Positions 3,655-33,012 of a stretch of 49,955 nt of DNA are shown in pieces (positions within the stretch are counted from its first letter, which is position 1; each line of letters begins with the position of its first letter). The notes below the pieces were generated by a model. It worked only from the letters and a program-made list of their open reading frames with translations. It made no database searches and was not told the origin of the DNA. The DNA comes from Candidatus Azotimanducaceae bacterium (lineage in GTDB: Bacteria > Pseudomonadota > Gammaproteobacteria > Pseudomonadales > Azotimanducaceae). The DNA is taken from NCBI GenBank assembly GCA_047625245.1, contig JBLHQQ010000001.1:1-49955 (forward strand). The letters run 5' to 3'. A program made the translations under genes and the position numbers.

Positions 3655-3688
3655 AGATATTCCTTCATGTGATACAGTAATGCAGACG

Positions 3689-4633: not shown

Positions 4634-4716
4634 TTAACGTTCCTCTATTAATGCTGTTAGCCTGATCTACCTAAATTTCTTGATCCAGCGACAAGTCCAA
4701 AACAACATGTCGCAGG

Positions 4717-6060: not shown

Positions 6061-6195
6061 TTTCAGCTGCTCTCTCGATATGTTGCGATATTTACCTGAA
6101 GCCTGATGTTTCGATCACGAGCGCCCAAAGGTATGTAACTTCAACTTCCTGGTTTGAACCGCATGCAGACAAACATCCAGCCAATGTATCAAGAG

Positions 6196-7128: not shown

Positions 7129-7155
7129 ATAATCTACTCAACCAAAATATATTTG

Positions 7156-7965: not shown

Positions 7966-8100
7966 GCTACTCCCCTTCCAAAAACTTAAAAAAATCCTAG
8001 CCTAGATAGGCAAACCACTAACAACCAGGTATGAATTTTACTTCAGACACTTCAGGCGTACTTCCAAGAAATTGTAGATTCGCGCCGCCAGAGGTTAACT

Positions 8101-9192
8101 TTATTGCCCTGCTGGTAATACCGTGGCTAAAAACCGTTTGCAGGCGGCACGAAATTCTTCACTGTTGTCATAGAGACCAATGCCAATGACGCCCTCTTTA
8201 TCCGGCAAAATAAGACGTAACTGCGATGAGGTATTTTTCTTGTCTTTGGCAAGCGCTGTAAGCAGGTCATCCGCGGGGATATCCACCTGGCCAAAATCAC
8301 TGTAGTTGGCTGCCAAAACCGGGTGCATTCTCTCAAAGTGAGCCAGCGTGCTTACCCCCAGACTGGCTGCAACAAAATTTGCCATATCAGCGCCTATTGT
8401 TACAGCAACACCATGAGGCACACCAAAATTCGTCGCTGATTCTATGGCATGGCCAAAGCTATGACCATAATTCATCACGTTTCTAGGGCCCACATCAAAC
8501 TCATCCAACTCAACGATCTTCTGCTTGATCTTAAGTGATTTGAAGATGAACTCCTCCATGACCGCCTGATCATCGAGAATTTGTCCATAATTCAGGCTGA
8601 TTTCATCAAAAGACGCGGGTCCCTTGATTGCATGGACCTTTAACATTTCGCCGATACCAGAGCACAGTTCCTGCCGCGACAAGGTCTCCAAAAAGCTGGT
8701 GTCGATAATAATTTTGTTCGGTGGCGTAAAAGTACCCAGAATATTCTTGATTTTGCCAACATTGATGGAGCTTTTAGAACCAATGCAAGAATCTGCTTGA
8801 GCGAGCAACGTGGTCGGATAAAAAACCCAGGGTAAGCCGCGCATCATCGTTGTCGCAATAAAACAGGTGATATCCTGAATGATACCGCCTCCGATCGCGA
8901 TGAGTTGTTGACCCCGTCTCACCTTACCTTCCACAAGGTGTTCGATATAAACCTGAAATTTATCAAGAGACTTATTGGACTCAATGGCTTCAATGGCTAG
9001 ATAGGGCCTTACAGCCAACAAATTACCCAGTCGATCGCCGTAGAGTTCCACTATCTTCTTGTCGATGATGACAAAACAGTCCTCAGGAGGCGAGCTATTC
9101 AGCACGCTAATGCCATCAGCATCAAAGGCAGCGATATATTCCCCTTTATGTGACTGTATAACTAGCGACTCAGACACGTGAAAAACCTCCAT
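8101..9192 (-). CDS. 3-dehydroquinate synthase-like sugar-phosphate cyclase family protein
   Basis: 363 aa, colinear with AroB: IAIGGGIIQDITCF, YPTTLLAQADSCIGSKSSIN, GEMLKV, NYGHSFGHAIE, PHGVAV (NAD and metal ligand positions retained). Overlaps the upstream SDR by 23 nt. Confidence 0.8.
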   Translation of the reverse strand: MEVFHVSESLVIQSHKGEYIAAFDADGISVLNSSPPEDCFVIIDKKIVELYGDRLGNLLAVRPYLAIEAIESNKSLDKFQVYIEHLVEGKVRRGQQLIAIGGGIIQDITCFIATTMMRGLPWVFYPTTLLAQADSCIGSKSSINVGKIKNILGTFTPPNKIIIDTSFLETLSRQELCSGIGEMLKVHAIKGPASFDEISLNYGQILDDQAVMEEFIFKSLKIKQKIVELDEFDVGPRNVMNYGHSFGHAIESATNFGVPHGVAVTIGADMANFVAASLGVSTLAHFERMHPVLAANYSDFGQVDIPADDLLTALAKDKKNTSSQLRLILPDKEGVIGIGLYDNSEEFRAACKRFLATVLPAGQ

Positions 9193-9880
9193 CGATAATA
9201 ATATTTTGGCCTGTTAGATAAGTATTATTCTGACTGACGAGGTAAGAAACCAGTTGGGCTATCTCTTCCGGTTGTCCCATTCTTTTCATCGGGATCTTAG
9301 CTTGTGCCAACTTCATGCCTTCCTCACCTAAAACTCGCCGGGTGAGATCGGTGTCTATGAAGCCAGGCCCGACACTATTTGCAAGGATCCCATATTCCGC
9401 GATCTCAACTGCCAGAGCAGTAGTCATGCCGTCTACGCCAAACTTACTGGCGCTGTACGACGCTCGATACTCCTTGCTGATATGCCCAAAGATTGACGTT
9501 ATATTAACGATTCGACCGAAACTGACTGAGCGCATATACCCCAAAGCAGCCTGGCAGACCCGAAATGTCGCCTCTAGATTGACACGCTGAATATTTTGAA
9601 AATCCTCTAATTCTATTTTTTCAAACTCAGCAACTTTATTGATTCCCGCGTTGTTTACGACCACAACAAACTCGTGCCTTCTGACCTCCTCGAGGAACGC
9701 GAGAACTGAGGATTCCGACAAGAAATCAACCACCAGTAAACTACAACCCTTGGGTGGCTGGCTAGTCTCAGATGTGCCACTAACGTAAACCTCCATACCT
9801 TCTGCCAGTAGTTTCTCAGCGATCGCTTTACCGATACCACGCGTGCCGCCTGTGACAAGTGCTTTAGAGGATTCTTTCAA
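9170..9880 (-). CDS. classical SDR oxidoreductase (FabG-like)
   Basis: 236 aa. ALVTGGTRGIGKAIA, NNAGI and YSASKFG motifs. Confidence 0.85.
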   Translation of the reverse strand: MKESSKALVTGGTRGIGKAIAEKLLAEGMEVYVSGTSETSQPPKGCSLLVVDFLSESSVLAFLEEVRRHEFVVVVNNAGINKVAEFEKIELEDFQNIQRVNLEATFRVCQAALGYMRSVSFGRIVNITSIFGHISKEYRASYSASKFGVDGMTTALAVEIAEYGILANSVGPGFIDTDLTRRVLGEEGMKLAQAKIPMKRMGQPEEIAQLVSYLVSQNNTYLTGQNIIIDGGFSRV

Positions 9881-9998
9881 ACTATTAACTCTCGCTTTAA
9901 GATGACAAATGCCGGCCCATTCACATAACGGGGACCTTGGCGGAAAAAATGAGGCCTACACATGTGATGGTTCAACTTCGATTCGGAATCAGCGGCAT

Positions 9999-11279
9999 TC
10001 AGGCAGCTTTAACCTCGGCTGGTTTAATCCCAGAGGTTCTAATACCAGACGGTCTTCGGCTTAGGAAAGCATTCAATGTTTTAGGTCCTCCTGAAGGAAG
10101 GACAGCAACTCTGCGGAGCAATTTGGAGTACGTCGTGACTATCGCCATCATACCGAGGAAATAATACTCAAAATAGGAACCATAAAAGGACTGCTGGAGA
10201 AGATTTGCGATCATACCACATGCCAAGAGCGCCAGAAATTTGTTATTTGTCTTCAGCAACTTTTTCAGCTCTACGAACCACATAAGCAGCAAACCACCGA
10301 GCAAAACTGCAGATTGCATACCCCCTATCACACTCCAATTGAGGAGAGTCAGTGTTGAATTCCCAAGTGTTTGGGTTGCCTCTTTTGAGTCGAACATTTT
10401 CGACACTGTAGCTTCATCGTAGCCGTACGGACGGTCGTAAACCATTTGAATTTTTGTCAGAATCCCCAAAATCCTGCTCGTACTGGAGCCTGACTTATCA
10501 AACATCCAAGACAAAAACTCCGTATTCAGGCTATAAATGATATACCCAATAATTACCAGAAAAGGAAAGACCAACATGGCAGTTTTGCCACTATTGCGAG
10601 TATACAAAATGTACACCAGTACACCGCAGGCAATGGAAAAAAACGAAAATACAGAAAAGGTGCTTAAAATCGCCACAACGATTAAGTAGAAGACTATTTT
10701 GTACAAGAAGATATCTTTGCTGTAGTAGTAGCTCAAAAACAATGAGGGTGTCAGAAAGTAGGCAAGCCTGTTTGTTTCCGTAAAATATGAAATCGTCCTG
10801 AAGTAACTCTTATCATTACTGAAACCCGCCAGGATGTTGAAATCTCGACTACCACCACTTTCAACAAAATTGATGCTATCGTAAGGTAAGGTTACATCAA
10901 ACAGCATCAGTATGATGAGTATCAGTGCCTGAAGACCTAAATAGGCACTTAACAACAGTCCAGTCTTAATGAATTGGTCCATGAGCCGGGGATATTGATA
11001 AAAAGATGCACAAAGAAGCACAAAAAATATTGTCCTAAGCACATAGGAATGAAAAAGCAGACCATTGATGTAGCAGTAGATCACAGCAACAGCAGCCATC
11101 ACAAAAAAATAGCCAGCGAAGTTGCCAACCTTCCTAAAACCTAAAACACCAAATACACCGACGGACAATAGCAGGAGAAAATTTTTCAGATAAACCGCAG
11201 TGAACGTCGAATAGCCATAAAGCATGTTCGGCCAATGCAACATGATCGACGCCATTACGACATATATAAGGTATCGCAT
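9999..11279 (-). CDS. wzy: polytopic membrane protein, probable O-unit polymerase
   Basis: 426 aa, about 10-12 hydrophobic segments, visibly AT-rich. Called from position in a Wzx/Wzz locus; no diagnostic motif beyond topology. Confidence 0.6.
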   Translation of the reverse strand: MRYLIYVVMASIMLHWPNMLYGYSTFTAVYLKNFLLLLSVGVFGVLGFRKVGNFAGYFFVMAAVAVIYCYINGLLFHSYVLRTIFFVLLCASFYQYPRLMDQFIKTGLLLSAYLGLQALILIILMLFDVTLPYDSINFVESGGSRDFNILAGFSNDKSYFRTISYFTETNRLAYFLTPSLFLSYYYSKDIFLYKIVFYLIVVAILSTFSVFSFFSIACGVLVYILYTRNSGKTAMLVFPFLVIIGYIIYSLNTEFLSWMFDKSGSSTSRILGILTKIQMVYDRPYGYDEATVSKMFDSKEATQTLGNSTLTLLNWSVIGGMQSAVLLGGLLLMWFVELKKLLKTNNKFLALLACGMIANLLQQSFYGSYFEYYFLGMMAIVTTYSKLLRRVAVLPSGGPKTLNAFLSRRPSGIRTSGIKPAEVKAA

Positions 11280-11570
11280 AAGCTAGTCTTTAGTTCGTCG
11301 ATGTCTAATGAAATCACAATGTTCCAGCCAGTCAAATTGATTAGAGTCCGCCGCTGGGGACTGAAACACTCTAGATGGCATCATCAGGGCTCGTCAGCGT
11401 GGATTGCGGTCGCTCTCCACGCATCAAACGAACCCACGCTTCTACGTTCAGGTTTATCATACAACCACTCACATTGTACATCACTGAACGAAGAAGCCTC
11501 GCTACAAAACTCACCGAAAACCTACTATAAACCAGGTAATCTCCACCAAGACGCAACGGAGGCACTTCTC

Positions 11571-12173
11571 TTATTTAATAAATCGCATTAAATAATTACC
11601 GACAACATGGTCGATGATCATATGTCCGTCCTCGACGGGGCCATATTCACCTTTCTCAGATGGGATATGGACGGTATGGTCCACCAAAGGGCGCAGCTTT
11701 CCGCCGTCAAATCCAGTGAGCCCAATGGTTTTAGCACCAATCTTCTTCGCATACTCGATTCCTCGTATGACGTTGCCTGAGTTGCCTGAGGCAGAAATTG
11801 CGACCACGACATCATCCTTCTTAAGCAGCACTGCCAATTGCTCATAGAAAATATTATCGTAACCGTTGTCGTTGCCAATGGCGGTAATGACGGCGAGATT
11901 GTCACATAAACTCACTGCTCTAAAAGGCTTTTCAAAAGAACGTGTACCTATGGATATATCATTGGCGAAATGTGATGCTGTCGCTGCGCTACCGCCATTA
12001 CCGATAAAGTAAACTGTTGAGCCTGCTTGCCTTGCCGCTAAAAGGACGTCAACAAACGCAGCGATTTCACTGCGATCGATTTTCGCGAGCACTTGAGTCA
12101 AGTAACCCAGGTAAGAATCAACAAAGTCTGTACTATTGGCTGTTTCCGAAAAAATTCTATCTACGTTGTTCAT
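11571..12173 (-). CDS. SIS-domain sugar-phosphate isomerase, divergent GmhA-like
   Basis: 200 aa. VYFIGNGGSAATASHFAND, AIGNDNGYDNIF and ISASGNSGN motifs. Confidence 0.8.
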   Translation of the reverse strand: MNNVDRIFSETANSTDFVDSYLGYLTQVLAKIDRSEIAAFVDVLLAARQAGSTVYFIGNGGSAATASHFANDISIGTRSFEKPFRAVSLCDNLAVITAIGNDNGYDNIFYEQLAVLLKKDDVVVAISASGNSGNVIRGIEYAKKIGAKTIGLTGFDGGKLRPLVDHTVHIPSEKGEYGPVEDGHMIIDHVVGNYLMRFIK

Positions 12174-12422
12174 CTGAATGTTCCTTTAAATCCTCAAATT
12201 GAGATTTCATGCACAGCACGATGCATGCTAACGAATATTTACCCATAACCAAATGCAAACTGAGCCTATACTGGACAATTAATAGATTCACTGATCAATA
12301 TAATGGGCCGTGATAATCAATTTTCTGTCGCTATACACCTCCAATAATGAAAAGTGTGGGGCTACCAATACTAAGCTCCTGAGCAACCTCTAAACGACCT
12401 ACCCAAAAGCTGTCATCTACCA

Positions 12423-13958
12423 TCATGTTCGCGTTCCCAGACCCACACTTTGTGAGATCAGCGCTACCACTCGCCCAACGTAGTGTTTTTCTGTTGAATC
12501 CAACACAACAAGATAGATGAACAGGGCATACGACAAGTATTCAACCCCACCCTCCACAACCAGTCCCAACAATGAACTGTCACTAAAAATGGGGCCTATC
12601 AAGACCGCTACAGAGTAGGGTACAACGCCTAGAATAGCCAGACATAACATTCGCGCAAGAAACGGTAACGTTGGTATCTTAAAGTAGGCCAAAAATATTG
12701 CGACCGACACAGGGACGATAACCAGTAAGCCGACACTGCGACTGCTTGCTATTGCAAACAGGCCAAACTGATCCACTGTCGCTAATATGTACAAGGTGCT
12801 AATGCTGAATATTATCCAACCAAAGGAGGAAAATAGCCCCATTCTGTAGTTAATACCCAGAAATATCGAATTTCCATGGCTGATAAATAGCGAAAGCAGG
12901 GGAACCAGAAACAGAAACTGCATCAAATAGCCGTATTGTACGTAATCTATACCTACCCAGATTTCGATAATGTTATTTGTCAGTAAAACTAAACAGGTAA
13001 TGAATGGGACAAATATGAGCAGATTGAGTTTCAGACCGACAATGAACAGCCGATCTGTGGAACCCGCCCCACGAGTTGTCGATAGCTCACTTGCAACGGG
13101 GACAACAACAGCATTACCAAAACCAATGATGGTCTTCGCCAGATTCGGAACCTTTGAGACAATATCGTAGATCCCCAGCGCTGCTGGTGTAAGAATAGTT
13201 GTCACGAAAAATTTTGGAGACTGATTATACAAGACGCCGGCAATGCCTCCCGAAAAAAGCGCACCGCAGTACCTAAGAAACCGCAATTGCGTAGAACGTT
13301 CATGGCTCAAAGTGAATGAATATTTGCCATTTTTGAAGTTAAAAACCAGTAAACTGACTAAAAACGTCACAACATGCATCAAACTCAGCGCCTTAATAAC
13401 CTCTACATAACCATAACCGAAATGCAGGAGCGCCAATACGGAAAGGAAATATAGCAAGTAGCTGGATGTGTCTATCAACTTCGATGTCATAAACTGCTGC
13501 AATCCCTCGAGGTAGCCAAGCAGCACAAGATTAAAGAACTGGAAGTATACCGCGGCGATCACAAAATCAAACGCCCCTAAATAGTCATCGAGAAATTCGA
13601 GGGGTACGTTAAACACTGTTTGCAGCAAATAGACCTTGAAGCTGTATAGAAACAGTACGATCAATGAACTTATCAAAAAATAGAACACCAGCGCGCTATT
13701 GAGTAAAACGCTAATCTTCCTATCCTCGTGGGAGGCAGTAAACTCTGCTACAAACTTCGTCATTGCAGATTGAATACCACAAATAAAAATCCCTAGGACA
13801 CCATTACGAACAGAAAAGAACACTGTCAAAACGATCAATCCGTACTTTTCAGTGCCGACCGACGCTAATAATATTGGGACAAGTAAAAACCCAAGAAAAG
13901 AAGTCAACAGACTGTTAGATAGAACAGCAAATGTGTTTTTAACCATCTTGTTTATCAT
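12423..13958 (-). CDS. wzx: oligosaccharide-unit flippase (MOP/Wzx family)
   Basis: 511 aa, about 12-14 TM segments, N-terminus KNTFAVLSNSLLTSFLGFLLVPIL typical of polysaccharide-biosynthesis MOP proteins. 4-nt overlap with the upstream gene. Confidence 0.75.
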   Translation of the reverse strand: MINKMVKNTFAVLSNSLLTSFLGFLLVPILLASVGTEKYGLIVLTVFFSVRNGVLGIFICGIQSAMTKFVAEFTASHEDRKISVLLNSALVFYFLISSLIVLFLYSFKVYLLQTVFNVPLEFLDDYLGAFDFVIAAVYFQFFNLVLLGYLEGLQQFMTSKLIDTSSYLLYFLSVLALLHFGYGYVEVIKALSLMHVVTFLVSLLVFNFKNGKYSFTLSHERSTQLRFLRYCGALFSGGIAGVLYNQSPKFFVTTILTPAALGIYDIVSKVPNLAKTIIGFGNAVVVPVASELSTTRGAGSTDRLFIVGLKLNLLIFVPFITCLVLLTNNIIEIWVGIDYVQYGYLMQFLFLVPLLSLFISHGNSIFLGINYRMGLFSSFGWIIFSISTLYILATVDQFGLFAIASSRSVGLLVIVPVSVAIFLAYFKIPTLPFLARMLCLAILGVVPYSVAVLIGPIFSDSSLLGLVVEGGVEYLSYALFIYLVVLDSTEKHYVGRVVALISQSVGLGTRT

Positions 13959-14443
13959 TCAGAGGCTAGATTTTTCAATATCTTCGCCGGCACTCCACCC
14001 GCAATGACGGAAGAAGGCAAATCCTTCGTCACGACTGAACCGGCAGTAATGATAACGTTGTCTCCGATGGTTACCCCACCAATTATCGTGACGTTGGTGG
14101 TTATCCAGCAACCCGAACCGATTTTGATGTCATGCCCATGTTCTGGAGATTCTGCTACCTCAAGGTTAAAGTTTTTACGATGATACAATTTTTTTCTCAT
14201 TCCCCCTTCAAACTCATGAATACCCGTAGCAAGAACACAATTATGGCCAAATATTGTGTCATCACCTATTGCTACATTGCCGGAAGATACATTGATGACG
14301 GTATTGAGTAGTGATGTCCGTTTCCCCAATAGAACGCGGCTTCGCTTCCCATGAATGTAGGGTCGCCGGCCGGAATATTTTCGAACAAAATCGATCAACA
14401 CTCCCATGACGACTTCAACAAATTTTTGCCAAACTTTTAGCAT
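13955..14443 (-). CDS. left-handed beta-helix (hexapeptide) acetyltransferase, probable O-acetyltransferase
   Basis: 162 aa. Hexapeptide repeats IGSGCWITTNVTIIGGVTIGDNVIITAGSVVTKDLPSSVIAGGVPAKI. Confidence 0.8.
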   Translation of the reverse strand: MLKVWQKFVEVVMGVLIDFVRKYSGRRPYIHGKRSRVLLGKRTSLLNTVINVSSGNVAIGDDTIFGHNCVLATGIHEFEGGMRKKLYHRKNFNLEVAESPEHGHDIKIGSGCWITTNVTIIGGVTIGDNVIITAGSVVTKDLPSSVIAGGVPAKILKNLASE

Positions 14444-14447
14444 TTTT

Positions 14448-15800
14448 TCACGATTTTTTAGCCATAATTTTGTCTATCCGATCAATCGCAGTATCAATTG
14501 CACGGTCTTCAAAAAACTGGCGCAGATGCTCATAATCAGCCATCTTCTTTTGCGGCTCATGAATGGTCGTGAACATTTCCGCTAATTTGTCTTCAAAATC
14601 AGCTTCATTCGTGAAATATTTGAGCCCTTGGTAATATTTTTCGAGAACCGGCCACTGCCTATGGACAAACTGCTGGAGTTCAGCAGCCACCACCATCGTC
14701 GGGATATTGTAGGCTATGGGCATTGCCAGGGACGTAGTGAACTGTGAAACAACCATGTCCACTCTGGGTAACAGTTCATAGAAGGACTCATAGGTTATGG
14801 CATAACCCGTCAAGCCTACCTGATCCAATATTTTCCTATTCTCCGGTTCACTGCTCGAAGGATGCGGTTTTATGACAATGTTCACAGAGTAGCTTAGCTT
14901 ATCGACAACGTTTTTAAGCATCCTGTAGAAGCGCACAACCTCCTCGTAATCGAGGGTAAAATGATCATAGCCTTGTGGACGGACTTTACCTTCAGGCAAG
15001 CACTTCCGGGTCATCACCAAACAAGTAATACCATCGCGATCATCTGCATCTTGACGAATATGGTTCCACCATCGACTATCAAGGCTTGGGTAACCAATCT
15101 TAATGAATTGTGTCTTGTGCTCCATGGCGACCTCCCACGGCGTCCCAAATTTAAAAGGCATCCAGTGCTCTGTATAACTCGGCATCAAATTGCTGTTGTG
15201 TTCATCGAACCTGCAAAATTCATCAGTAGCATGGATATAATGAGGTGCATGGGGCAGAAGGATGACGGGCTTTCGCTCTTTCTCAAAATACCTGTAGAGC
15301 TCATCACGACCATAACAATCTGTGACGGTTCTGTTATCAAATAGAATAATGTCGGGCGCCAGCGAGGGTAGAATTCGCTTGGCCCGGACCAACAATGCAG
15401 ATATGCGTAACTCTACCGGTTTCATGTACCGAACCAGGACCGATTTGAGCACCTTACCAAAATTTCTAAACTTATCACGCCTCAGTTCAACCAGGCTTAA
15501 CTTGTCAGAGTAGGATCGCTCGAAGAAGCGCAGGATGAGGGCTTTGAAAACGGCTGGAACGCCAACAATAAACGAACTGTAGTCGTACTGCTGGATGTCA
15601 TTCTCACAGCAAAACTCTTCCAGGAAAATTGAATCCCTTAGAATTTGTTTCTTGTTAAGTGTCGTATACAGTATAGAGATTTTAGCCGTCGGATATTTCT
15701 GTCGGATACCCCATAACACTGGGAGAGAATAGTCCAGAGTACTCGTATTCTTCATTACAATTTGCAGAACGTGCATTGGCTTGGCGCTCGTTAACGTCAT
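14448..15800 (-). CDS. uncharacterised GT-B-like protein with xHP motif (candidate ulosonic-acid or phospho-alditol transferase)
   Basis: 450 aa. VIKPHPSSS followed by VDMVVSQFTTSLAMPIAYNIPT, a pattern seen in sialyl-, Kdo- and TagF-type transferases. No other recognisable motif. Confidence 0.45.
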   Translation of the reverse strand: MTLTSAKPMHVLQIVMKNTSTLDYSLPVLWGIRQKYPTAKISILYTTLNKKQILRDSIFLEEFCCENDIQQYDYSSFIVGVPAVFKALILRFFERSYSDKLSLVELRRDKFRNFGKVLKSVLVRYMKPVELRISALLVRAKRILPSLAPDIILFDNRTVTDCYGRDELYRYFEKERKPVILLPHAPHYIHATDEFCRFDEHNSNLMPSYTEHWMPFKFGTPWEVAMEHKTQFIKIGYPSLDSRWWNHIRQDADDRDGITCLVMTRKCLPEGKVRPQGYDHFTLDYEEVVRFYRMLKNVVDKLSYSVNIVIKPHPSSSEPENRKILDQVGLTGYAITYESFYELLPRVDMVVSQFTTSLAMPIAYNIPTMVVAAELQQFVHRQWPVLEKYYQGLKYFTNEADFEDKLAEMFTTIHEPQKKMADYEHLRQFFEDRAIDTAIDRIDKIMAKKS

Positions 15801-16789
15801 AGCCCATCAATTACTTGATTCAGTATCTGCAATGTATCTCTATTTATTCCTACTCTACGCTCGCAAGAAGCTGAATCCCTTGGTACTGCAAGCACCTTTA
15901 CCCCAATATAGTCTAGTTGACGATAGTCACATTCGAACAAGCAATTTCGCATTGCTTCGGCAGTCATCAAGGAATCTGGTTCAAAATCAACGATACCAGG
16001 CTCACGGGCGACCGGCAGGTGTAAGTCTGTCCATTGACCATAGGCCGACTCAACGGCGCTTGTGCCCGAAAAAATCAGACCTCGCAGCACGCCTTTTTCA
16101 AAAGCCTGCCTGACATGTTGAGCTGCACCATCTGGATGGCGATGCTCAATCACGGACCTCGCCCAATTTATAGTCATACCAACCTCAATAGCAGATGCGG
16201 CAAAGAGCTTTTCAATGGTCTGCAGCTCTTCTTCGATATTCAGAAAGCCTTTAACAGGTTTACTTTTAGTCCTGCCACTGTCGCAATGCTCAATGGCTAA
16301 CTTCGCGCCATCCCACTGGTAATTCGACATTGTCTCCAAAGACCGATACAGCGCATCAGCAGAACTGGAAGCAGTCGGGTGAGACAGCGCCGGGGAGGTC
16401 GCCACAGCAACGCTGACCACGGACCTCCGACCAAAATAATCATTAAGGGTACGAACCGCTGCTGCTGCTTTACTATAAAAAGTCAGAGCCGCTTGCCTAC
16501 CCTCCTCATTATTTGAAGCGAGGCCGAAATGGGGGTTCAACACGAGACCATCCATATTGCCTGGCAAGCACGTAATCGCAAACTCCCAGTGGTCCGCAAG
16601 TAAACTGAGAAAAAGTTTACTATCATGAGGATGAACTCCGTCACCCCAAAAAGGCAGCTCTAACCCACGAATAGTCCCTAATTCCTCGGTCATTGCCCTC
16701 ATATAGACAGTTTCAGCCTCGGCGTCCCAAACCTGAAGTGTCGGGGACGTTGCGTAAGCTCCAACCATGTACCTACTAAAATCAGCCAT
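15797..16789 (-). CDS. hypothetical protein, possibly a TIM-barrel enzyme
   Basis: 330-aa ORF coupled at both ends (ATGA overlap downstream, 8-nt overlap upstream). I recognise no motif with confidence. Confidence 0.5.
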   Translation of the reverse strand: MADFSRYMVGAYATSPTLQVWDAEAETVYMRAMTEELGTIRGLELPFWGDGVHPHDSKLFLSLLADHWEFAITCLPGNMDGLVLNPHFGLASNNEEGRQAALTFYSKAAAAVRTLNDYFGRRSVVSVAVATSPALSHPTASSSADALYRSLETMSNYQWDGAKLAIEHCDSGRTKSKPVKGFLNIEEELQTIEKLFAASAIEVGMTINWARSVIEHRHPDGAAQHVRQAFEKGVLRGLIFSGTSAVESAYGQWTDLHLPVAREPGIVDFEPDSLMTAEAMRNCLFECDYRQLDYIGVKVLAVPRDSASCERRVGINRDTLQILNQVIDGL

Positions 16790-17480
16790 TTAGATACTGA
16801 CCTCCATTAAGATCAAGTCCGCAGCCGGTCATATAGGTATTATCACGGCTCACGAGGAATGCTATGGCTTTAGCTACTTCGAGGGGTTCTACAATCCGTT
16901 GCAGGGGTATTTGCTGCTCTACTGTGCGCAACAGTTCAGGATCAACATTAGCGATCAACATCGGCGTAGCTGTCATACTCGGAAACACGGAGTTAATTAA
17001 GACACCGTCTACCGCAAATTCAATCGCCAGTTGTTTAACAACGCCACTCAGTGCAGATTTGCTGGTGGTATACTCAAACCCTGAAAATTGACTAAAGCTT
17101 CTGGCTGCTAGCGAATTCACCACAACTACCCGTCCCTTTGAGGCTTTCAATTGTTTGTAGGCGTGTTTCAGACACAAGAGCAAACCAGTAACATTGGTCG
17201 CCATGATGGCATTGAGGACCGCAGGATCAAAATCCTCTATAGATTGCTTTTTTGCAGTAATCCCCGCCGCATAAACAATACCTTCAAGAGGAGTATCCGG
17301 GTCAGAAAAAAACGCCTCAATACTCGCTTCGTCGGTAACATCAACCAACCGACTCGACCCACCAACACTCATTTCCTGCAGTTGGCGTCGGCCGCCTACA
17401 ATGGTATCGTATCCCAGTTCGCACAGATACTTTGCGGTCTCAAGACCAATACCAGATGTCCCCCCTATAACGGCTATCAC
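16782..17480 (-). CDS. classical SDR oxidoreductase
   Basis: 232 aa. IAVIGGTSGIGLETAKYL and YTTSKSAL motifs. Confidence 0.85.
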   Translation of the reverse strand: MIAVIGGTSGIGLETAKYLCELGYDTIVGGRRQLQEMSVGGSSRLVDVTDEASIEAFFSDPDTPLEGIVYAAGITAKKQSIEDFDPAVLNAIMATNVTGLLLCLKHAYKQLKASKGRVVVVNSLAARSFSQFSGFEYTTSKSALSGVVKQLAIEFAVDGVLINSVFPSMTATPMLIANVDPELLRTVEQQIPLQRIVEPLEVAKAIAFLVSRDNTYMTGCGLDLNGGQYLNG

Positions 17481-17482
17481 TC

Positions 17483-18622
17483 TCAGGCGTCACTGTCGCG
17501 AGGATAAACATGAGCCACATCTGAACGGCTTACGGCCATTCGAATTGCAGGCTTATTGCCACTGGCGGTTATTTTATGCTTACGCCCCTTCTGCATAAAT
17601 ACAATCTCACCTTTCTTGACAATTTTTACTTCGCCTTCAATTTCCCACTCCCATTCACCGTCGACGATGTACCACCATTCATTCCAATCTGGATGATAGT
17701 GGCGCCGGTTACCTTCCCCGGGCAATTGCGAAATGACGGTCATAGAATTACTGTCGGTGTCTATCACACGCTTGCTCCATGACTTGGAGGAATCCATCGA
17801 TTCAATTAGATCTTTGACCACAACAATCTCTTTATTGACGTCGTAGAGGTCATTAAACTCAACACCGTCCTTCTTAAGTATACTTTCGACATGAGCCTCA
17901 GAGTGATCTGAACTTGCTTCATCATAATATTCTATAGCTGCCGCGGTGTTCTGTTTTCTTGCGCTGATTATTGCCTGGGCTAGTTGGAAATCCTCCTCCC
18001 TGTCGATATCAATAGTTGACAGTCCTCTCAACTCAAAGTAGCCAGCCTTGCCGTCACCACCATGATATGCGGCGCCAAATTTTTCCATATTTTCCTGAAA
18101 ACTAGGGTAAGTCCAGCCCATCAGTGCAGTAGCATAAGCCATCACCGGTTCCATCGTCTGCGACGGCGGATTCACCTTACACATCTCAAAATTTATTGGC
18201 TCACCTTTATAAACGCTGGCAATCTGGTTATGTTCAACCGACACAAGTGTATCCAATTTCTGGTCTATCATCGCTTTCACAAACTCACGAATTTCAGAAA
18301 CTGATAGCAACGGCGAAGTAGGTAAAATTTGAATCAGAATATCGCCTTCAACATTCTTCATAAAGTCGAGGGAAAACTGGTCGTTTGTCGCCTGGTCGCT
18401 TGAAAAAACTTCTGGGCGCTTATAGAAGCTGATGCCCTTTTCCTCAGCGATGAGGCGAAAAACATCTGCTTCAGAGTTAAGATAAATTTCATCAAAAGCA
18501 TTCGAAGCCATCACACTTTCTATGATGTAAGAAATCAAAGGCTGACCGTCAATCAACCGGAGGTTCTTCTTAATTATTCGTTTACTGCCCAGGCGGGCTG
18601 GGATCATCGCAATTATTTTCAT
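17483..18622 (-). CDS. NeuA/KdsB-family cytidylyltransferase fused to a C-terminal cupin domain
   Basis: 379 aa. N-terminus MKIIAMIPARLGSKRIIKKNL..ILPTSPL (CTP_transf_3 type). C-terminus GNRRHYHPDWNEWWYIVDGEWEWEIEG..GRKHKI (cupin HxH..E..H pattern). Confidence 0.8.
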   Translation of the reverse strand: MKIIAMIPARLGSKRIIKKNLRLIDGQPLISYIIESVMASNAFDEIYLNSEADVFRLIAEEKGISFYKRPEVFSSDQATNDQFSLDFMKNVEGDILIQILPTSPLLSVSEIREFVKAMIDQKLDTLVSVEHNQIASVYKGEPINFEMCKVNPPSQTMEPVMAYATALMGWTYPSFQENMEKFGAAYHGGDGKAGYFELRGLSTIDIDREEDFQLAQAIISARKQNTAAAIEYYDEASSDHSEAHVESILKKDGVEFNDLYDVNKEIVVVKDLIESMDSSKSWSKRVIDTDSNSMTVISQLPGEGNRRHYHPDWNEWWYIVDGEWEWEIEGEVKIVKKGEIVFMQKGRKHKITASGNKPAIRMAVSRSDVAHVYPRDSDA

Positions 18623-19545
18623 TTTAAGCCTTTCTCGTATTCAATTAGTGATTCGATGGCACTTCGACCCATTGCCAATACTGACTCGATAGAATTGCCA
18701 CCGATATGCGGCGTAGTGATTAAATTTTCGATAGCAATCAGTTCTGCATTCTCGGGGGGTTCTTCATAATAAACATCAATTGCGGCGCCTGCAATCTGCT
18801 GGCTTTGCAACGCGTGCTTTAACGCTTCAAGGTCAATCAACTCTCCTCTAGCAGTATTCAATACAAGCGCAGAAGGCTTCATCATTCCAAATGCCTGTGC
18901 GTCGATAAGATGATCCGTCGAATCGTTCAAGGGTGTGTGGACAGTTATAATATCGGCCTCGCGATAAAGCACCTCTTTCTCAACATGTATAACCCCAACT
19001 GATGCATAATAGTCTTGCTGGTCAAGAATATCGTTCACTAGGATTTTGCAGTGGAATGGCTCAAGTAAACGGATGAGTTCTTTACCGATATGTCCGACGC
19101 CAATGATACCAATGACTTTTTCACTTAAATTTGCTCCACCACTCTTGTTCCAATTTGCCGCTTTCAACTGGTTTGATGTCAGATACAGATTACGAATCAA
19201 CATAAGCATAAAGCCAATCGCCATTTCAGCTACAGACAGCTTATTAACACCGGCTTGCCAGGCCACTTTCACGCCTTTCTCTTGACAGTAGGCAATATCA
19301 ACATTATTCAGACCGACACCGTACTTGGCCACGATTTTCACACCCGGACAGGCATCTATAATATCTTTATTAAAATCTTCTAAGCCTATTATCACAGCAT
19401 CTGCGTCAGCTATGAACTCAATCAGTGCCGAGCCGTTGTAACGCTCACCTGATTCGTTTATTCGCACGTCATCAAAGTATTCACCCAGTTCAGCGATCAG
19501 GGTATCATTGATGGAAAATGCCTTATTGGGAACCGCTATTTTCAC
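18619..19545 (-). CDS. D-isomer-specific 2-hydroxyacid dehydrogenase (PGDH-like)
   Basis: 308 aa. IGIIGVGHIGKEL, LNTARGELID and TPHIGG motifs. Confidence 0.85.
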   Translation of the reverse strand: MKIAVPNKAFSINDTLIAELGEYFDDVRINESGERYNGSALIEFIADADAVIIGLEDFNKDIIDACPGVKIVAKYGVGLNNVDIAYCQEKGVKVAWQAGVNKLSVAEMAIGFMLMLIRNLYLTSNQLKAANWNKSGGANLSEKVIGIIGVGHIGKELIRLLEPFHCKILVNDILDQQDYYASVGVIHVEKEVLYREADIITVHTPLNDSTDHLIDAQAFGMMKPSALVLNTARGELIDLEALKHALQSQQIAGAAIDVYYEEPPENAELIAIENLITTPHIGGNSIESVLAMGRSAIESLIEYEKGLK

Positions 19546-19572
19546 TTAATATCTCCAGAAGGTTTTCCCAAT

Positions 19573-20631
19573 TCAAGCATTTTGGTAATAGCCTGATTGG
19601 TCGTATATCGCCTCAATAAGTTCCATCACATTCATTGCGTCCGAACTGCGACCGTGAAGAACAGCTTTGTTACCATTAATCGCGTCAGCAAACTCATTGA
19701 TTTCAAGTTGCCATGAATCATCTTGCTCAAAGTTCATCACAATCTCATCAGGCTTGCCCATTGCATAGGTAATGTGTTCTTTTTCGCTTTTACCAATAAT
19801 CAACCGTTCCGGCGCATAACTTCTGGTTTCCGATAGAATACCGTCAAGATTCAGATAGCCATGTTCAAACATGATTTCAAGTAAGAACTTGTGTCGCCAC
19901 TGGGTAGCTGAGGAATGAATGGTACTGATCAGACCATCTTTTGTTTTCATCATGACGAAAGCATTGTCTTCCGCTTCAACATCCCAGTGAGCATTTGTTA
20001 GATATGCGTGAACGTCGGAGAATTTTTGACCGGAAAAATACAGCATAAGATCCAACATATGGATACCTTGATCCATCAATATTCCGCCACCGGAATATTG
20101 GCGATAGTTTCGCCACTCCTTGTGATAATCAATACTGCCGGCCTTACCATAGACACCGCGCATCCAGAGAATGTTACCCATCTCTCCGCTATCCATGATT
20201 TTCTTCGCCTCAATTACAGAATAGTGAAACCGATGGTTGAAGCCATATTTGAGGATCAAGCCGGTACTGTCTTCAATACGCCTAACAACCTCCAGCTCAG
20301 CTACGGTTTTTGCCGGGGGCTTTTCGCAAAAGACATGAAAACCTGCCTGAAGGCCTTTTGCTGCGTACTCAGAAGCTACACTATTAAATGCACAGATAAC
20401 CAACGCATCGATATCCTGCTTCAGCAAGTCATCGAAACTGGCACACCCAACCACGTCAGCTAACCCATCAAGCACACTCTCGTTAATATCAAATACGGCT
20501 ACCAATTCCATATCAGCATGGGCCAGAACTGCTTTCGCCCTGATTTTACCCATTTTTCCAAATCCTGCTATCCCAACCCTGATCAACGCTTGTGTCTCCC
20601 TTAATTTATTATTAGCTACCACGTTGCTCAA
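19573..20631 (-). CDS. Gfo/Idh/MocA-family oxidoreductase
   Basis: 352 aa. IRVGIAGFGKMGKIRA Rossmann start and CEKPPA motif. Confidence 0.85.
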   Translation of the reverse strand: MSNVVANNKLRETQALIRVGIAGFGKMGKIRAKAVLAHADMELVAVFDINESVLDGLADVVGCASFDDLLKQDIDALVICAFNSVASEYAAKGLQAGFHVFCEKPPAKTVAELEVVRRIEDSTGLILKYGFNHRFHYSVIEAKKIMDSGEMGNILWMRGVYGKAGSIDYHKEWRNYRQYSGGGILMDQGIHMLDLMLYFSGQKFSDVHAYLTNAHWDVEAEDNAFVMMKTKDGLISTIHSSATQWRHKFLLEIMFEHGYLNLDGILSETRSYAPERLIIGKSEKEHITYAMGKPDEIVMNFEQDDSWQLEINEFADAINGNKAVLHGRSSDAMNVMELIEAIYDQSGYYQNA

Positions 20632-21994
20632 TCATGGCGATAATGGTTGATGAAAACGTATCGATCTCAGGCAGGCTGTTAACATACAATTCGCCTGGCA
20701 AAGTCCTGTCCCAGACACGTTGAAAATATCTGGCCCGATCCGCCTCACTCGTCTCTTCAAGACTGAGCGCCTGTTTAAGCCCTGTCGCGAGTCCTGATAT
20801 ATGCTCAACTCGCACGACAAGTGGACTGTTTTTATAGAATGCGTCCCCCATCACCACTACGGGTTTACCTAACAAAGCTGCCTCCGCGCCTGATTTTGAA
20901 TTTATTGAAACGATGCTCGCCGCTGCACCTAGAACCTTATAGTTATTAACACCAGGATTAATGATTACCAAATTATCGTAACTTCGCACCATACTTTTTA
21001 CGCGATCAACATCAACAGCTCCTATCTGGGCTGGATGCTCCTTTATCGCGATCTTATAACCACTAGGAACCACTCTCACCAGATACTCGATCAACGCGAG
21101 TTGATCCAAGTATTCGGGAGACCTGAGAGTCAGCGCAGCATCACCAGGCACGTGCAATGGAAAATAGACGAAGGGACCTATCTGCTCTAACTCTGAATAC
21201 ATTGAACGCATGCGCACAGAATTGATCAACATCGAGAGATGCTTCATTGCGTATACGTAGATAAAACCAAACTCCTGATGTTTTCCCAAAACATGTTTAT
21301 CTATGATTTTCGCAACAAAACGGCGAAGATTTTTCAAATTCACAATTTTCTTTAGTGCTGCGTTATATTGATGTTTGTCTTTTTTTGGAATTACTATTGA
21401 CTGATTCGCAATAGCCTTACCAATATAGGACTCAACTTCCGGAGACACGACGGCGGCATATACGTCCCCGGCGTCAAGCGAGCCGTAGGTATTTACGAGG
21501 CCAAAAAGCATACCGCTAAAAAATGAGGGTTCCAGAAAATAATTGTCAATGTTATGTTTTTGAGCTACGAAATAGGCTGCAATGACGGACAAGAAACCAC
21601 CTAATTCCTGCACAAAATCAATTTTTTGCTCAGGATTTTCTGTAACTAGAATTTTCGTAACATTATCTATTGAGCGCAGGTAGGCTGCCAGACGCGAATT
21701 CAGCGCCACCGAATCGGCTATCGAAAATGTAATGCGCTCATGAGAGGTCCAAAGATTCGAGTCTTCGAGATCAAACTCTGCGAAAACATCTTCGGGCACC
21801 AGCTCACCTTCACTTAATAATCTCTTGCTCAGGCTCGGAATATCATAATTTCTTTGCCCTTTTGAACAAAGCATTTCGGTGCTTCTGGTATCAAAAGACA
21901 GGAAAACAACATCATGCCCCCTGGCTTTCAGCCCGATACCTACATTGATCCAGAATTCTGTCTGGTATTCCGCGAGCGTGGTAATAACAATCAT
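20612..21994 (-). CDS. KpsS/KpsC-like (Capsule_synth-type) putative ulosonic-acid transferase
   Basis: 460 aa. IAIKEHPAQ followed by IVSINSKSGAEAALLGKPVVVMGDAFY, which resembles the C-terminal signature of capsule-synthesis (beta-Kdo transferase-like) proteins. Confidence 0.55.
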   Translation of the reverse strand: MIVITTLAEYQTEFWINVGIGLKARGHDVVFLSFDTRSTEMLCSKGQRNYDIPSLSKRLLSEGELVPEDVFAEFDLEDSNLWTSHERITFSIADSVALNSRLAAYLRSIDNVTKILVTENPEQKIDFVQELGGFLSVIAAYFVAQKHNIDNYFLEPSFFSGMLFGLVNTYGSLDAGDVYAAVVSPEVESYIGKAIANQSIVIPKKDKHQYNAALKKIVNLKNLRRFVAKIIDKHVLGKHQEFGFIYVYAMKHLSMLINSVRMRSMYSELEQIGPFVYFPLHVPGDAALTLRSPEYLDQLALIEYLVRVVPSGYKIAIKEHPAQIGAVDVDRVKSMVRSYDNLVIINPGVNNYKVLGAAASIVSINSKSGAEAALLGKPVVVMGDAFYKNSPLVVRVEHISGLATGLKQALSLEETSEADRARYFQRVWDRTLPGELYVNSLPEIDTFSSTIIAMIEQRGS

Positions 21995-24713: not shown

Positions 24714-24718
24714 TTGTG

Positions 24719-26011: not shown

Positions 26012-26016
26012 TCCAA

Positions 26017-33011: not shown

Positions 33012-33012
33012 A

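What the first reader, a model, noticed from the sequence alone, without database searches (positions are those of the whole stretch)
8101..12173. 3-dehydroquinate-synthase-like cyclase and SDR embedded among wzy, wzx and a divergent SIS isomerase
The 8101-9192 product retains the AroB NAD and metal motifs (GGGIIQD, GSK, GEMLK, NYGHSFGHAIE, PHG). It is translationally overlapped with a FabG-like SDR inside the glycan operon rather than a shikimate context. The DHQS superfamily includes sugar-phosphate cyclases that use sedoheptulose-7-P or glucose-6-P (EEVS, DDGS, DOIS). A second, divergent GmhA-like SIS protein, also from a sedoheptulose-7-P-handling family, lies between wzx and wzy. One possibility is a carbocyclic (cyclitol-type) or otherwise rearranged C7 constituent in the repeat unit, which would be very unusual for a bacterial surface glycan. 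The alternative is an oxidoreductase-type side reaction of this superfamily on a sugar acid.
Basis: partly seen in the sequence, partly recalled or inferred. Interest (0 to 1): 0.7.

Follow-up and report, generated by a model that had tools for sequence, protein, structure and literature searches.

The report
DHQS-like enzyme of unknown CMP-sugar pathway
A relative of the shikimate-pathway enzyme dehydroquinate synthase sits inside a surface-polysaccharide gene cluster as the signature gene of a widespread, still uncharacterised gene cassette that probably builds an unknown CMP-activated seven-carbon acid sugar, or a carbocyclic analogue of one.

Summary
It is not the housekeeping AroB: it passes NCBIfam TIGR04425 ([quoted passage not shown], 458 bits against a cut-off of 400) and fails aroB (262 against 305). 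It is also not an EEVS/DDGS/DOIS-type cyclase. All 13 DHQS catalytic and binding residues, including the K250/R264 pair that those cyclases lack, are kept in all 15 family members aligned, so the substrate should resemble DAHP (a 2-keto acid 7-phosphate). In 59 related loci of at least 15 kb, from many phyla, the SDR + DHQS-like pair travels with a D-2-hydroxyacid dehydrogenase (52), a GFO/IDH/MocA oxidoreductase (52), a KdsB/PseF-type cytidylyltransferase (47, plus up to 10 cupin-fused) and the GmhA-like SIS (32). In this window that cassette is split into 8101-12173 and 15797-20631. My best reading is a CMP-activated C7 ulosonic acid made by a phosphate-eliminating DHQS-type step. A carbocyclic, quinate-like product is the main rival. 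I found no literature on it. The family is known but its function is not.

The parts
8101..9192 (-). DHQS-like enzyme of family TIGR04425. It probably starts at the GTG at 9177, giving 358 aa.
   Evidence: TIGR04425 458.3 bits (cut-off 400); aroB 261.7 (cut-off 305). Full 13-residue DHQS signature. AF2 model pLDDT 85.8, with the top 32 PDB fold matches all DHQS.
9170..9880 (-). FabG-like SDR (SDR1), translationally coupled to the DHQS-like gene
   Evidence: Pfam adh_short_C2 E 2.4e-48, below all NCBIfam FabG cut-offs. Overlapping or adjacent to the DHQS-like gene in 81/82 related loci.
9999..11279 (-). Wzy-like polytopic membrane protein inserted between SIS and SDR1
   Evidence: No Pfam or NCBIfam hit. 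Multiple hydrophobic segments. 45% identical to the 395-aa gene that follows Capsule_synth in L098.
11571..12173 (-). Divergent GmhA-like SIS phosphosugar isomerase, a cassette member
   Evidence: SIS_2 E 9.5e-22; gmhA 110 bits (cut-off 209). Aligns to GmhA structures with the S-x-S-G-x-S phosphate loop and both His kept. Present in 32/59 related loci, usually directly upstream of SDR1.
12423..13958 (-). Wzx-type flippase
   Evidence: Polysacc_synt E 2.3e-14. 45% identical to the L098 flippase.
13955..14443 (-). Hexapeptide O-acetyltransferase that co-travels with the cassette
   Evidence: Hexapep domain and WbbJ/WcaF-like hits. 67% identical to L098 12338-12826.
14448..15800 (-). 450-aa protein of unknown family that co-travels with the cassette
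   Evidence: No family hit. 53% identical to L098 10999-12351, in the same position after DUF4862.
15797..16789 (-). DUF4862, a xylose/rhamnose-isomerase-like TIM barrel
   Evidence: PF16154 E 2.3e-84. AF2 model pLDDT 93.6. Best PDB fold matches are L-rhamnose isomerase, xylose isomerase and psicose 3-epimerase, at TM about 0.6.
16782..17480 (-). Second SDR (SDR2) of the type II cassette
   Evidence: adh_short_C2 E 4.7e-37. Orthologues sit in the same position in L001, L050, L096 and L098.
17483..18622 (-). CTP_transf_3 cytidylyltransferase fused to a cupin domain
   Evidence: PF02348 E 2.4e-19 plus Cupin_2 E 1.1e-13. 66-74% identical to the L001 and L098 orthologues. The two domains are separate genes in C. 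lari.
18619..19545 (-). D-isomer-specific 2-hydroxyacid dehydrogenase (PGDH/GhrB-like)
   Evidence: 2-Hacid_dh_C E 3.1e-51. An orthologue lies within 51 nt downstream of the DHQS-like gene in 61/73 related loci.
19573..20631 (-). GFO/IDH/MocA oxidoreductase
   Evidence: Pfam GFO_IDH_MocA domains. Best NCBIfam hit is IolG at 122 bits, below its cut-off. Present in 52/59 related loci.
20612..21994 (-). KpsC/KpsS-type (Capsule_synth) glycosyltransferase, the candidate transferase for the CMP-sugar
   Evidence: PF05159 E 2.4e-14. 50% identical to the L098 orthologue in the same gene set. Not conserved in the other 59 loci.

Best explanation
The 8101-9192 product belongs to the TIGR04425 branch of the 3-dehydroquinate-synthase family. 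It is an NAD+/metal-dependent enzyme with a DAHP-type pocket. It is neither the shikimate AroB nor a sedoheptulose-7-P or Glc-6-P cyclase.

Together with the translationally coupled SDR it forms the invariant core of a conserved cassette. The other members are a GmhA-like SIS isomerase, a GFO/IDH/MocA oxidoreductase, a D-2-hydroxyacid dehydrogenase and a KdsB/PseF-type cytidylyltransferase. The cassette makes a CMP-activated building block for the repeat unit. In this window it is split into two blocks, 8101-12173 and 15797-20631.

The steps below are inferred, not shown.
1. A seven-carbon 2-keto acid 7-phosphate is formed. One route starts from sedoheptulose-7-P: SIS isomerises it to the heptose-7-P, GFO oxidises C1 to the heptonate-7-P, and the 2-hydroxyacid dehydrogenase oxidises C2. 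Alternatively the substrate is DAHP or an aldolase-made epimer.
2. The DHQS-like enzyme oxidises C5 and eliminates the C7 phosphate, as DHQS does.
3. The keto product is reduced by the coupled SDR. This gives a 7-deoxy-heptulosonic acid, by analogy with the 4,6-dehydratase plus 4-reductase pairs that make 6-deoxyhexoses.
4. The acid is CMP-activated and transferred, here probably by the KpsC/S-like transferase at 20612-21994.
For: Shown:
- Family assignment: TIGR04425 at 458 bits (cut-off 400); aroB at 262 (cut-off 305).
- Fold: AF2 model TM 0.81 to bacterial DHQS structures.
- Pocket: all 13 DHQS catalytic and binding residues are conserved in 15/15 family members aligned. S7P cyclases, DDGS and DOIS differ at 2-5 of them, notably K250 or R264.
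- Phylogeny: the family is monophyletic in 100% of 200 bootstraps and nests in the DHQS radiation. Identity is 54-66% within the clade across phyla and 27-28% to AroB.
- Context: in 59 loci of at least 15 kb, SDR1 occurs in 59, 2HADH in 52, GFO in 52, a cytidylyltransferase in 47 (plus up to 10 cupin-fused), SIS in 32 and HpcH in 26. Gene overlap or adjacency is conserved.
- The L003 cytidylyltransferase passes the KdsB subfamily cut-offs.
- The cassette sits contiguously in the C. lari capsule locus and in L098, which has the same transferase, flippase, Wzy-like gene and acetyltransferase as the window.
- The SIS keeps the GmhA phosphate loop and both His.
- No kinase or HAD phosphatase was seen among the recurrent genes that were annotated.

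From established knowledge:
- Every characterised PF02348 enzyme in glycan synthesis activates the anomeric OH of a 2-ulosonic acid.
- GFO enzymes commonly oxidise aldose C1.
- PdxB, SerA and KguD are 2HADH-family enzymes that act on phospho-2-hydroxy or 2-keto acids.
Against: - No enzyme of the cassette has been assayed, and I found no paper on it.
- The residues DHQS uses up to and including cyclisation are all present. From the DHQS literature (recalled, not checked here), the enol-pyranose intermediate cyclises spontaneously, so a carbocyclic product is at least as natural for this active site.
- The HpcH aldolase (26/59 loci), the cupin, DUF4862 and the HisC-like aminotransferase variants are not explained by the linear scheme.
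- GmhA's normal product has the manno C2 configuration, which a D-specific 2HADH would not be expected to oxidise.
- The KpsC/S-like transferase is shared only with L098, not with the other loci.
- The 59 loci are the closest 80 of at least 574 genome hits, so the census is biased toward near relatives.
Confidence: 0.45

Rival explanations
1. The enzyme carries out the complete DHQS reaction on DAHP or a hydroxylated or epimeric analogue. The product is a carbocyclic, quinate-like 1-hydroxy-1-carboxy-cyclohexane. The SDR, the IolG-like GFO enzyme and variant-specific methyltransferases or aminotransferases then tailor it, and the KdsB-like enzyme cytidylylates it as a carba-ulosonic acid. This would be a carbasugar in a surface glycan.
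For: - The complete DHQS catalytic set is conserved.
- NCBI's curators named the family 'cyclizing'.
- The GFO enzyme's best named hit is inositol 2-dehydrogenase.
- DUF4862 has the TIM-barrel fold that, from memory, is shared by inosose dehydratase and dehydroshikimate dehydratase (Pfam clan; fold).
- Methyltransferases and aminotransferases are frequent accessory genes.
- The tertiary C1-OH next to a carboxylate mimics the anomeric centre of Kdo (chemical reasoning).
Against: - A CMP ester of a saturated tertiary carbinol has no ring oxygen to support glycosyl-type transfer.
- No known PF02348 enzyme activates a carbocycle.
- The associated isomerase-type enzymes (SIS, DUF4862, cupin) and a Kdo-transferase-like GT point to open-chain or pyranose sugar chemistry.
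Confidence: 0.3
2. It is a genuine second 3-dehydroquinate synthase, acting on DAHP to give DHQ. It would supply a shikimate or quinate-derived non-sugar substituent, or simply back up aromatic biosynthesis, and its place in the glycan locus would be incidental.
For: All DAHP-binding residues are conserved. It scores 262 bits on the aroB model. The family nests in the DHQS radiation, next to a Firmicute AroB.
Against: - It fails the aroB cut-off and passes a separate family model.
- No DHQ dehydratase or other shikimate gene appears in the window or in the annotated cassettes.
- The strict coupling to an SDR, a 2HADH, a GFO enzyme and a cytidylyltransferase in glycan loci across many phyla is not incidental.
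Confidence: 0.1
3. It is an EEVS/EVS/DDGS- or DOIS-type cyclase that acts directly on sedoheptulose-7-P or Glc-6-P to give a neutral cyclitol.
For: It belongs to the same superfamily and fold. A GmhA-like, S7P-handling-type SIS is a cassette member.
Against: - It matches the DHQS fingerprint at 13/13 positions, whereas annotated S7P cyclases, DDGS and DOIS differ at K250, R264, N268, H275 and K356.
- Those clades are separate with 98-100% bootstrap support.
- PDB sequence scores favour DHQS (118-155 bits) over ValA (101), DOIS (89) and DDGS (86).
Confidence: 0.04

Closest known systems
3-dehydroquinate synthase AroB (EC 4.2.3.4; TIGR01357)
   Same: Same two-domain fold (TM 0.81). Same NAD-binding GGG motif. 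Same three metal ligands and all ten further substrate and phosphate-binding residues, with identical spacing.
   Different: Only 27-28% identity and below the aroB cut-off. It forms a separate clade with its own invariant residues: Q106, C136 and S142 in place of G/T, S and A/G. Its context is glycan-locus and CMP-sugar genes rather than aroK, aroB or aroQ.
NCBIfam/TIGRFAM TIGR04425 'AroB-related putative sugar phosphate phospholyase (cyclizing)' (hypothetical equivalog)
   Same: The window protein passes the curated cut-off (458 against 400), as do the Paramagnetospirillum and actinomycete members.
   Different: The family has no assigned substrate, product or pathway. The C. lari and L098 cassette enzymes fall just below the cut-off (385 and 391), so the functional group is wider than the model.
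Sugar-phosphate cyclases EEVS/EVS/DDGS (sedoheptulose-7-P) and DOIS (Glc-6-P)
   Same: Same superfamily, fold, NAD+/metal chemistry and phosphate elimination.
   Different: Those enzymes lack K250 or R264, the pair that (from memory of the DHQS structures) binds the DAHP carboxylate, and most also differ at N268, H275 or K356. They form separate clades. They feed secondary metabolites, not CMP-sugars.
Kdo / nonulosonic acid CMP-sugar pathways (KdsD-KdsA-KdsC-KdsB; NeuC/NeuB/NeuA and the Leg and Pse equivalents)
   Same: An SIS-type phosphosugar isomerase at the start and a PF02348 cytidylyltransferase at the end (KdsB-like in type I and III cassettes). Location in capsule or O-antigen loci. 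A KpsC/S-like transferase is present here.
   Different: No PEP-condensing synthase (KdsA or NeuB) and no HAD phosphatase in the cassette. The phosphate would instead be removed by a DHQS-type lyase, and three extra dehydrogenases are present.
NDP-hexose 4,6-dehydratase plus 4-ketoreductase pairs (RmlB/RmlD, Gmd/Fcl). This is a working analogy only.
   Same: Transient NAD+-dependent oxidation next to the ring oxygen, beta-elimination at the terminal carbon, then a separate SDR reduction of the keto product to give an omega-deoxy sugar.
   Different: Different fold (DHQS, not extended SDR). The leaving group is phosphate, not water. The substrate is not nucleotide-linked. The analogy is inferred, not tested.

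Membership tests
AroB, 3-dehydroquinate synthase (TIGR01357) | Score at or above the curated equivalog cut-off (305 bits) | tested here: not met
   261.7 bits. Other family members score 245-268.
AroB, 3-dehydroquinate synthase (TIGR01357) | Catalytic and binding residues R130, D146, K152, N162, E194, K197, K250, R264, N268, H271, H275, H287, K356 (A. nidulans numbering, from memory of the DHQS structures) | tested here: met
   All 13 are present with identical spacing and are identical to four AroB sequences.
AroB, 3-dehydroquinate synthase (TIGR01357) | Shikimate-pathway role and context; converts DAHP to DHQ; complements an aroB mutant | not testable with these tools
   No shikimate genes in the window or in the annotated cassettes. 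Activity was not assayed. The presence of a separate aroB in the same genome could not be checked from a 50-kb window.
TIGR04425 AroB-related putative sugar phosphate phospholyase | Score at or above the curated cut-off (400 bits) over the full length | tested here: met
   458.3 bits, covering residues 12-357 against model positions 1-347 of 348.
Sedoheptulose-7-P cyclases (EEVS/EVS/DDGS) | Active-site fingerprint lacking the DHQS residues K250, R264, N268, H275 and K356 | tested here: not met
   Annotated S7P cyclases and a Nostoc DDGS show M, K/A/D, D/A, P and R/E/L at these positions. The window protein shows K, R, N, H and K.
[quoted passage not shown] | R264 replaced by a small residue and N268 replaced by Glu; membership of the DOIS clade | tested here: not met
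   Annotated DOIS show A/G and E at these positions, where the window protein shows R and N. The DOIS clade is separate with 98% bootstrap support.
CMP-ulosonic acid (Kdo/NulO-type) biosynthetic cassette | PF02348 cytidylyltransferase in the same gene set | tested here: met
   Window 17483-18622. Present in 47 (plus up to 10 cupin-fused) of 59 related loci. The L003 enzyme passes the KdsB subfamily cut-offs.
CMP-ulosonic acid (Kdo/NulO-type) biosynthetic cassette | PEP-dependent ulosonate synthase (KdsA or NeuB family) dedicated to the pathway | tested here: not met
   A KdsA-like gene occurs only in L001/L002 and a NeuB-like gene in 9 loci, neither inside the cassette. The window's NeuB genes belong to other modules.
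GmhA (sedoheptulose-7-P isomerase), for the SIS at 11571-12173 | Equivalog cut-off, plus the catalytic and metal residues | tested here: inconclusive
   110 bits against a cut-off of 209. The phosphate loop and both His are kept, but the Glu/Gln metal ligands read Asp/Glu. Substrate unknown.

The most novel reading that the evidence does not exclude
The cassette makes a CMP-linked carbocyclic acid, a quinate-like carba-analogue of Kdo formed by a true DHQS-type cyclisation. That acid is then built into surface glycans of hundreds of bacterial species. This would be the first carbasugar nucleotide of primary cell-surface metabolism and would imply a new type of transfer chemistry.
Probability: 0.25. 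Interest if true: 0.9.

Novelty: new variant of a known kind. Interest (0 to 1): 0.66.

Why it matters
If either leading reading is right, bacteria from many phyla carry a previously unrecognised CMP-activated C7 building block in their capsules or O-antigens. Relatives were found in at least 574 species genomes, including a Campylobacter lari isolate genome. The block would be made by a dehydroquinate-synthase-type enzyme used outside aromatic biosynthesis.

That would add a new branch to the sugar-phosphate cyclase superfamily, one with a DAHP-type pocket, glycan function and a coupled reductase. It would also add a new way of making omega-deoxy or carbocyclic acid sugars, and a new antigenic sugar to look for in structural studies.

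It also has a practical annotation consequence. These genes are routinely named '3-dehydroquinate synthase', and the name is misleading for metabolic reconstruction.

The gene set is now defined well enough for direct in vitro reconstitution.

Tried and rejected
- The first genome-contig scan, using patterns from the single protein, found no relative. Only the alignment-based scan worked.
- No family member was found in PLSDB plasmids, INPHARED phages or complete E. coli genomes. No serotyped E. coli O-antigen could therefore be used to identify the sugar.
- All ten literature searches found nothing on this family or cassette. The terms covered TIGR04425, DUF4862, DHQS with O-antigen, capsule, nonulosonic acid, cytidylyltransferase, Campylobacter and bradyrhizose. 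The few hits were irrelevant.
- The paper with the published cyclase fingerprint (Kean et al. 2014) is not held. I rebuilt the comparison from annotated plasmid-borne S7P cyclases, DOIS, DDGS and AroB.
- DUF4862 has no sequence relative in the PDB. Only the fold search placed it.
- I considered Kdo-8-P, NulO-9-P and heptose-7-P as substrates and rejected them. A DHQS-type E1cB elimination needs the phosphate on the carbon attached to the ring C-O carbon of a pyranose. That limits the substrate to a C7 2-ulose or 2-ulosonate, or a hexose-6-P, and the hexose is excluded by the K250/R264 pair.
- I considered HpcH aldolase as a core enzyme and rejected it, because it is present in only 26/59 loci.
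- I considered a protocatechuate or dehydroshikimate route through DUF4862 and rejected it, because no DHQ dehydratase was seen among the annotated genes of the cassettes.

Full report
**1. Observation**

The window is one long minus-strand glycan operon. It runs from an RfaH/NusG-like gene (48684-49178) and Wzz (45538-46566) down to an initiating Bac_transf transferase (1782-2726).

- ORF 8101-9192 (-) encodes a 363-aa protein with both DHQS Pfam domains (E 2.7e-34 and 4.4e-30).
- The upstream FabG-like SDR (9170-9880) overlaps it by 23 nt. The overlap is 8 nt if the GTG used by the database copy is the true start.
- The GmhA-like SIS protein (11571-12173) lies between a Polysacc_synt flippase (12423-13958) and a 426-aa polytopic membrane protein with no family hit, which is Wzy-like.
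- There is only one DHQS-like gene and no shikimate gene in the window.

**2. Family placement**

- The protein passes the curated cut-off of NCBIfam TIGR04425, 'AroB-related putative sugar phosphate phospholyase (cyclizing)', a hypothetical equivalog (458.3 bits against 400). It fails the aroB equivalog (261.7 against 305).
- By sequence, solved DHQS structures are the nearest PDB relatives (118-155 bits). They rank ahead of ValA/EEVS (101), DOIS (89) and DDGS (86).
- An AlphaFold model (pLDDT 85.8) superposes on bacterial AroB at TM 0.81. The first 32 fold matches are all DHQS.
- The family is large. There were 7084 hits among the 8000 candidates scored, with many at 60-66% identity.
- At least 574 GTDB species genomes contain a relative. 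These span Pseudomonadota, Acidobacteriota, Actinomycetota, Elusimicrobiota, Verrucomicrobiota, a cyanobacterium (Raphidiopsis brookii D9), Magnetospirillum and others.

**3. Substrate pocket and phylogeny**

The paper with the published cyclase fingerprint was not available. I therefore fetched annotated comparators from plasmid records:

- four AroB;
- a Streptomyces DHQS-family gene next to a DHQ dehydratase;
- two 'sedoheptulose 7-phosphate cyclases';
- two DOIS;
- a Nostoc DHQS-like gene followed by an O-methyltransferase, which is the DDGS arrangement.

In a MAFFT alignment, 12 of 12 TIGR04425 members from different phyla carry all 13 DHQS residues: R130, D146, K152, N162, E194, K197, K250, R264, N268, H271, H275, H287 and K356 (A. 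nidulans numbering). The spacing is identical to AroB. The other classes differ as follows:

| Class | Differences from the DHQS set |
|---|---|
| S7P cyclases / DDGS | K250→M, R264→K/A/D, N268→D/A, H275→P, K356→R/E/L |
| DOIS | R264→A/G, N268→E |

K250 and R264 are the residues that, from my recollection of the DHQS-carbaphosphonate structures, hold the C1 carboxylate and C2 hydroxyl of DAHP. The pocket is therefore built for a 2-keto acid 7-phosphate, not for sedoheptulose-7-P or Glc-6-P.

- In a bootstrapped NJ analysis (200 replicates), the family is monophyletic in 100% of replicates. This includes the more distant cassette enzymes of C. lari and L098.
- S7P cyclases form a clade in 100% of replicates and DOIS in 98%.
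- The family nests in the DHQS radiation. It groups with a Firmicute AroB in 97% of replicates.
- Only three positions are invariant in the family and consistently different from AroB: Q106, C136 and S142.

**4. Genomic context**

Context is the most informative result. I scored the window's proteins by tblastn against 59 related loci of at least 15 kb.

| Cassette gene | Loci with it (of 59) |
|---|---|
| FabG-like SDR (SDR1) | 59 |
| PGDH-like D-2-hydroxyacid dehydrogenase | 52 |
| GFO/IDH/MocA oxidoreductase | 52 |
| CTP_transf_3 cytidylyltransferase (stand-alone form) | 47 |
| CTP_transf_3 fused to a cupin | 10 |
| GmhA-like SIS | 32 |
| HpcH/HpaI aldolase | 26 |

- The SDR overlaps or abuts the DHQS-like gene in 81/82 loci. 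The 2-hydroxyacid dehydrogenase follows within 51 nt in 61/73.
- Three architectures recur:
  - Type I: HpcH, KdsB-like, GFO, (SIS), SDR, DHQS-like, 2HADH.
  - Type II: SIS, SDR, DHQS-like, 2HADH, GFO, CTP_transf_3/cupin, SDR2, DUF4862.
  - Type III, mainly Rhodospirillales: HisC-like aminotransferase, GFO2, GFO, KdsB-like, methyltransferase, SDR, DHQS-like, 2HADH.
- The type I cytidylyltransferase passes the NCBIfam KdsB subfamily cut-offs, and the aldolase is HpaI/GarL/RhmA-like.
- Accessory genes are mostly methyltransferases, AsnB-type amidotransferases, FAA-hydrolase-family proteins and glycosyltransferases.
- No kinase, HAD phosphatase or KdsA/NeuB-type synthase belongs to the cassette.

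The window carries a type II cassette that has been split.

- GFO (19573-20631), 2HADH (18619-19545), CTP_transf_3-cupin (17483-18622), SDR2 (16782-17480) and DUF4862 (15797-16789) form one block.
- SIS, the Wzy-like gene, SDR1 and the DHQS-like gene form the other.
- Metagenomic locus L098 shows the same cassette contiguously, with the same repeat-unit machinery: Capsule_synth transferase 50% identical, 450-aa unknown 53%, acetyltransferase 67%, flippase 45%, Wzy-like 45% and GT2 41%.
- A Campylobacter lari isolate genome (GCA_025772205.1) has the whole type II cassette inside its capsule locus. It is followed by sulfate-activation genes, a sulfotransferase and KpsC/KpsS.
- DUF4862 models with high confidence (pLDDT 93.6) as a xylose/rhamnose-isomerase-like TIM barrel.

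**5. Mechanism: shown and inferred**

Shown:

- The enzyme has the DHQS fold and the complete DHQS catalytic and binding set.
- It is a separate, strongly conserved clade.
- It is always coupled to an SDR and nearly always to a 2HADH, a GFO enzyme and a CMP-type nucleotidyltransferase, in glycan loci.

Inferred:

- The SIS keeps the GmhA phosphate loop and no kinase is present, so the phosphorylated precursor should come from central metabolism.
- The steps before phosphate loss would be the SIS, GFO and 2HADH reactions. A chemically economical route is sedoheptulose-7-P, then heptose-7-P (SIS), then heptonate-7-P (GFO, C1 oxidation), then hept-2-ulosonate-7-P (2HADH, as PdxB, SerA and KguD do on phospho-acids). 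This gives a DAHP analogue that fits the pocket.
- DAHP itself, or an aldolase-made epimer, is the alternative entry.
- The DHQS-like enzyme then oxidises C5 and eliminates the phosphate.
- I favour release of a keto-deoxy ulosonic acid that the coupled SDR reduces, which is the logic of 4,6-dehydratase plus reductase pairs. CMP activation follows. Three points support this. Every known PF02348 enzyme of glycan synthesis activates a 2-ulosonic acid. A CMP ester of a carbocycle is a poor glycosyl donor. The co-travelling transferase here has the KpsC/S (beta-Kdo transferase) domain.
- I put this reading at about 0.45.

**6. Rivals**

- *Full cyclisation to a quinate-like carbocyclic acid (0.3).* It fits the intact active site, the family's curated name and the IolG-like GFO enzyme. 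It is the most novel reading that remains open.
- *A plain second AroB (0.1).* The failed cut-off, the context and the absence of any DHQ dehydratase among the annotated genes argue against it.

**7. Comparison with known systems, and novelty**

- The gene is a member of a family already in NCBIfam (TIGR04425), but that family has no assigned substrate, product or pathway.
- Ten full-text searches returned nothing on the family, on DUF4862, or on a DHQS homologue in O-antigen, capsule or flagellin-glycan loci.
- It works like DHQS at the active site. It resembles the Kdo/NulO pathways at the two ends (SIS isomerase, CMP transferase). It lacks their PEP-condensing synthase and phosphatase.
- I therefore rate it a new variant of a known kind.

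**8. Limits**

- All functional statements beyond family, fold, residues and context are inference.
- Comparator identities rest on database annotation and gene neighbourhood.
- The NJ tree is simple and uses few AroB sequences.
- ORF calling in GC-rich loci was crude.
- The locus census uses the 80 closest of at least 574 genome hits.
- Whether the source genome has a separate aroB cannot be tested from this window.

Noticed in passing
window 35459-43920 (-): A second uncharacterised CMP-sugar module. It comprises an HddC-like nucleotidyltransferase, a CBS-fused HddA-like GHMP kinase, and a 652-aa NeuB-like synthase fused to SAF and a xylose-isomerase-like TIM barrel. It also holds a GmhA closer to the canonical one, a CTP_transf_3 cytidylyltransferase, another TIM-barrel protein and three SDRs. 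This suggests a heptose-derived higher ulosonic acid.
   Followed up: no
window 23601-35329 (-): A legionaminic-acid-type gene set: LegC, NeuC-like, NeuB-like, PtmE-like, PtmA-like and a cytidylyltransferase. It also carries a formyltransferase and acetamidino machinery (two WbuX, WbuZ, HisH). Counting this one, the locus encodes three PF02348 cytidylyltransferases.
   Followed up: no
L096 (Campylobacter lari GCA_025772205.1, contig JAKMRV010000001.1, locus 3221-20126): The capsule locus of a C. lari isolate genome carries the complete type II cassette: Cyclase, SIS, GFO, 2HADH, SDR, DHQS-like, CTP_transf_3, cupin, SDR and DUF4862. It is followed by CysD/CysN-like genes, an APS kinase, a sulfotransferase and KpsC/KpsS. 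This looks like a tractable organism for identifying the sugar, which may be sulfated.
   Followed up: partly
window 8101-12173 compared with L098 3780-10993: The window's 2HADH, cytidylyltransferase, SDR2 and DUF4862 are 57-74% identical to those of L098. Its SIS, SDR1, DHQS-like enzyme and GFO are only 36-44% identical to L098's, and closer to L001 (53-65%). The two halves of the cassette therefore have different evolutionary histories, which fits the split arrangement in the window.
   Followed up: partly
window 15797-16789 (-) and homologues P0121-P0240: DUF4862 (PF16154) has no PDB sequence relative but models confidently as a xylose/rhamnose-isomerase-like TIM barrel. One homologue also hits PF01261. 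Homologues occur in Campylobacter lari, Sulfurimonas, Paucibacter and Alteromonadaceae.
   Followed up: partly
window 20612-21994 (-): A stand-alone KpsC/KpsS-type Capsule_synth domain protein (460 aa) inside a Wzx/Wzy-type locus, overlapping the GFO gene by 20 nt. It is 50% identical to a gene in L098. A beta-Kdo-transferase-like enzyme is unusual outside ABC-transporter capsule loci.
   Followed up: partly
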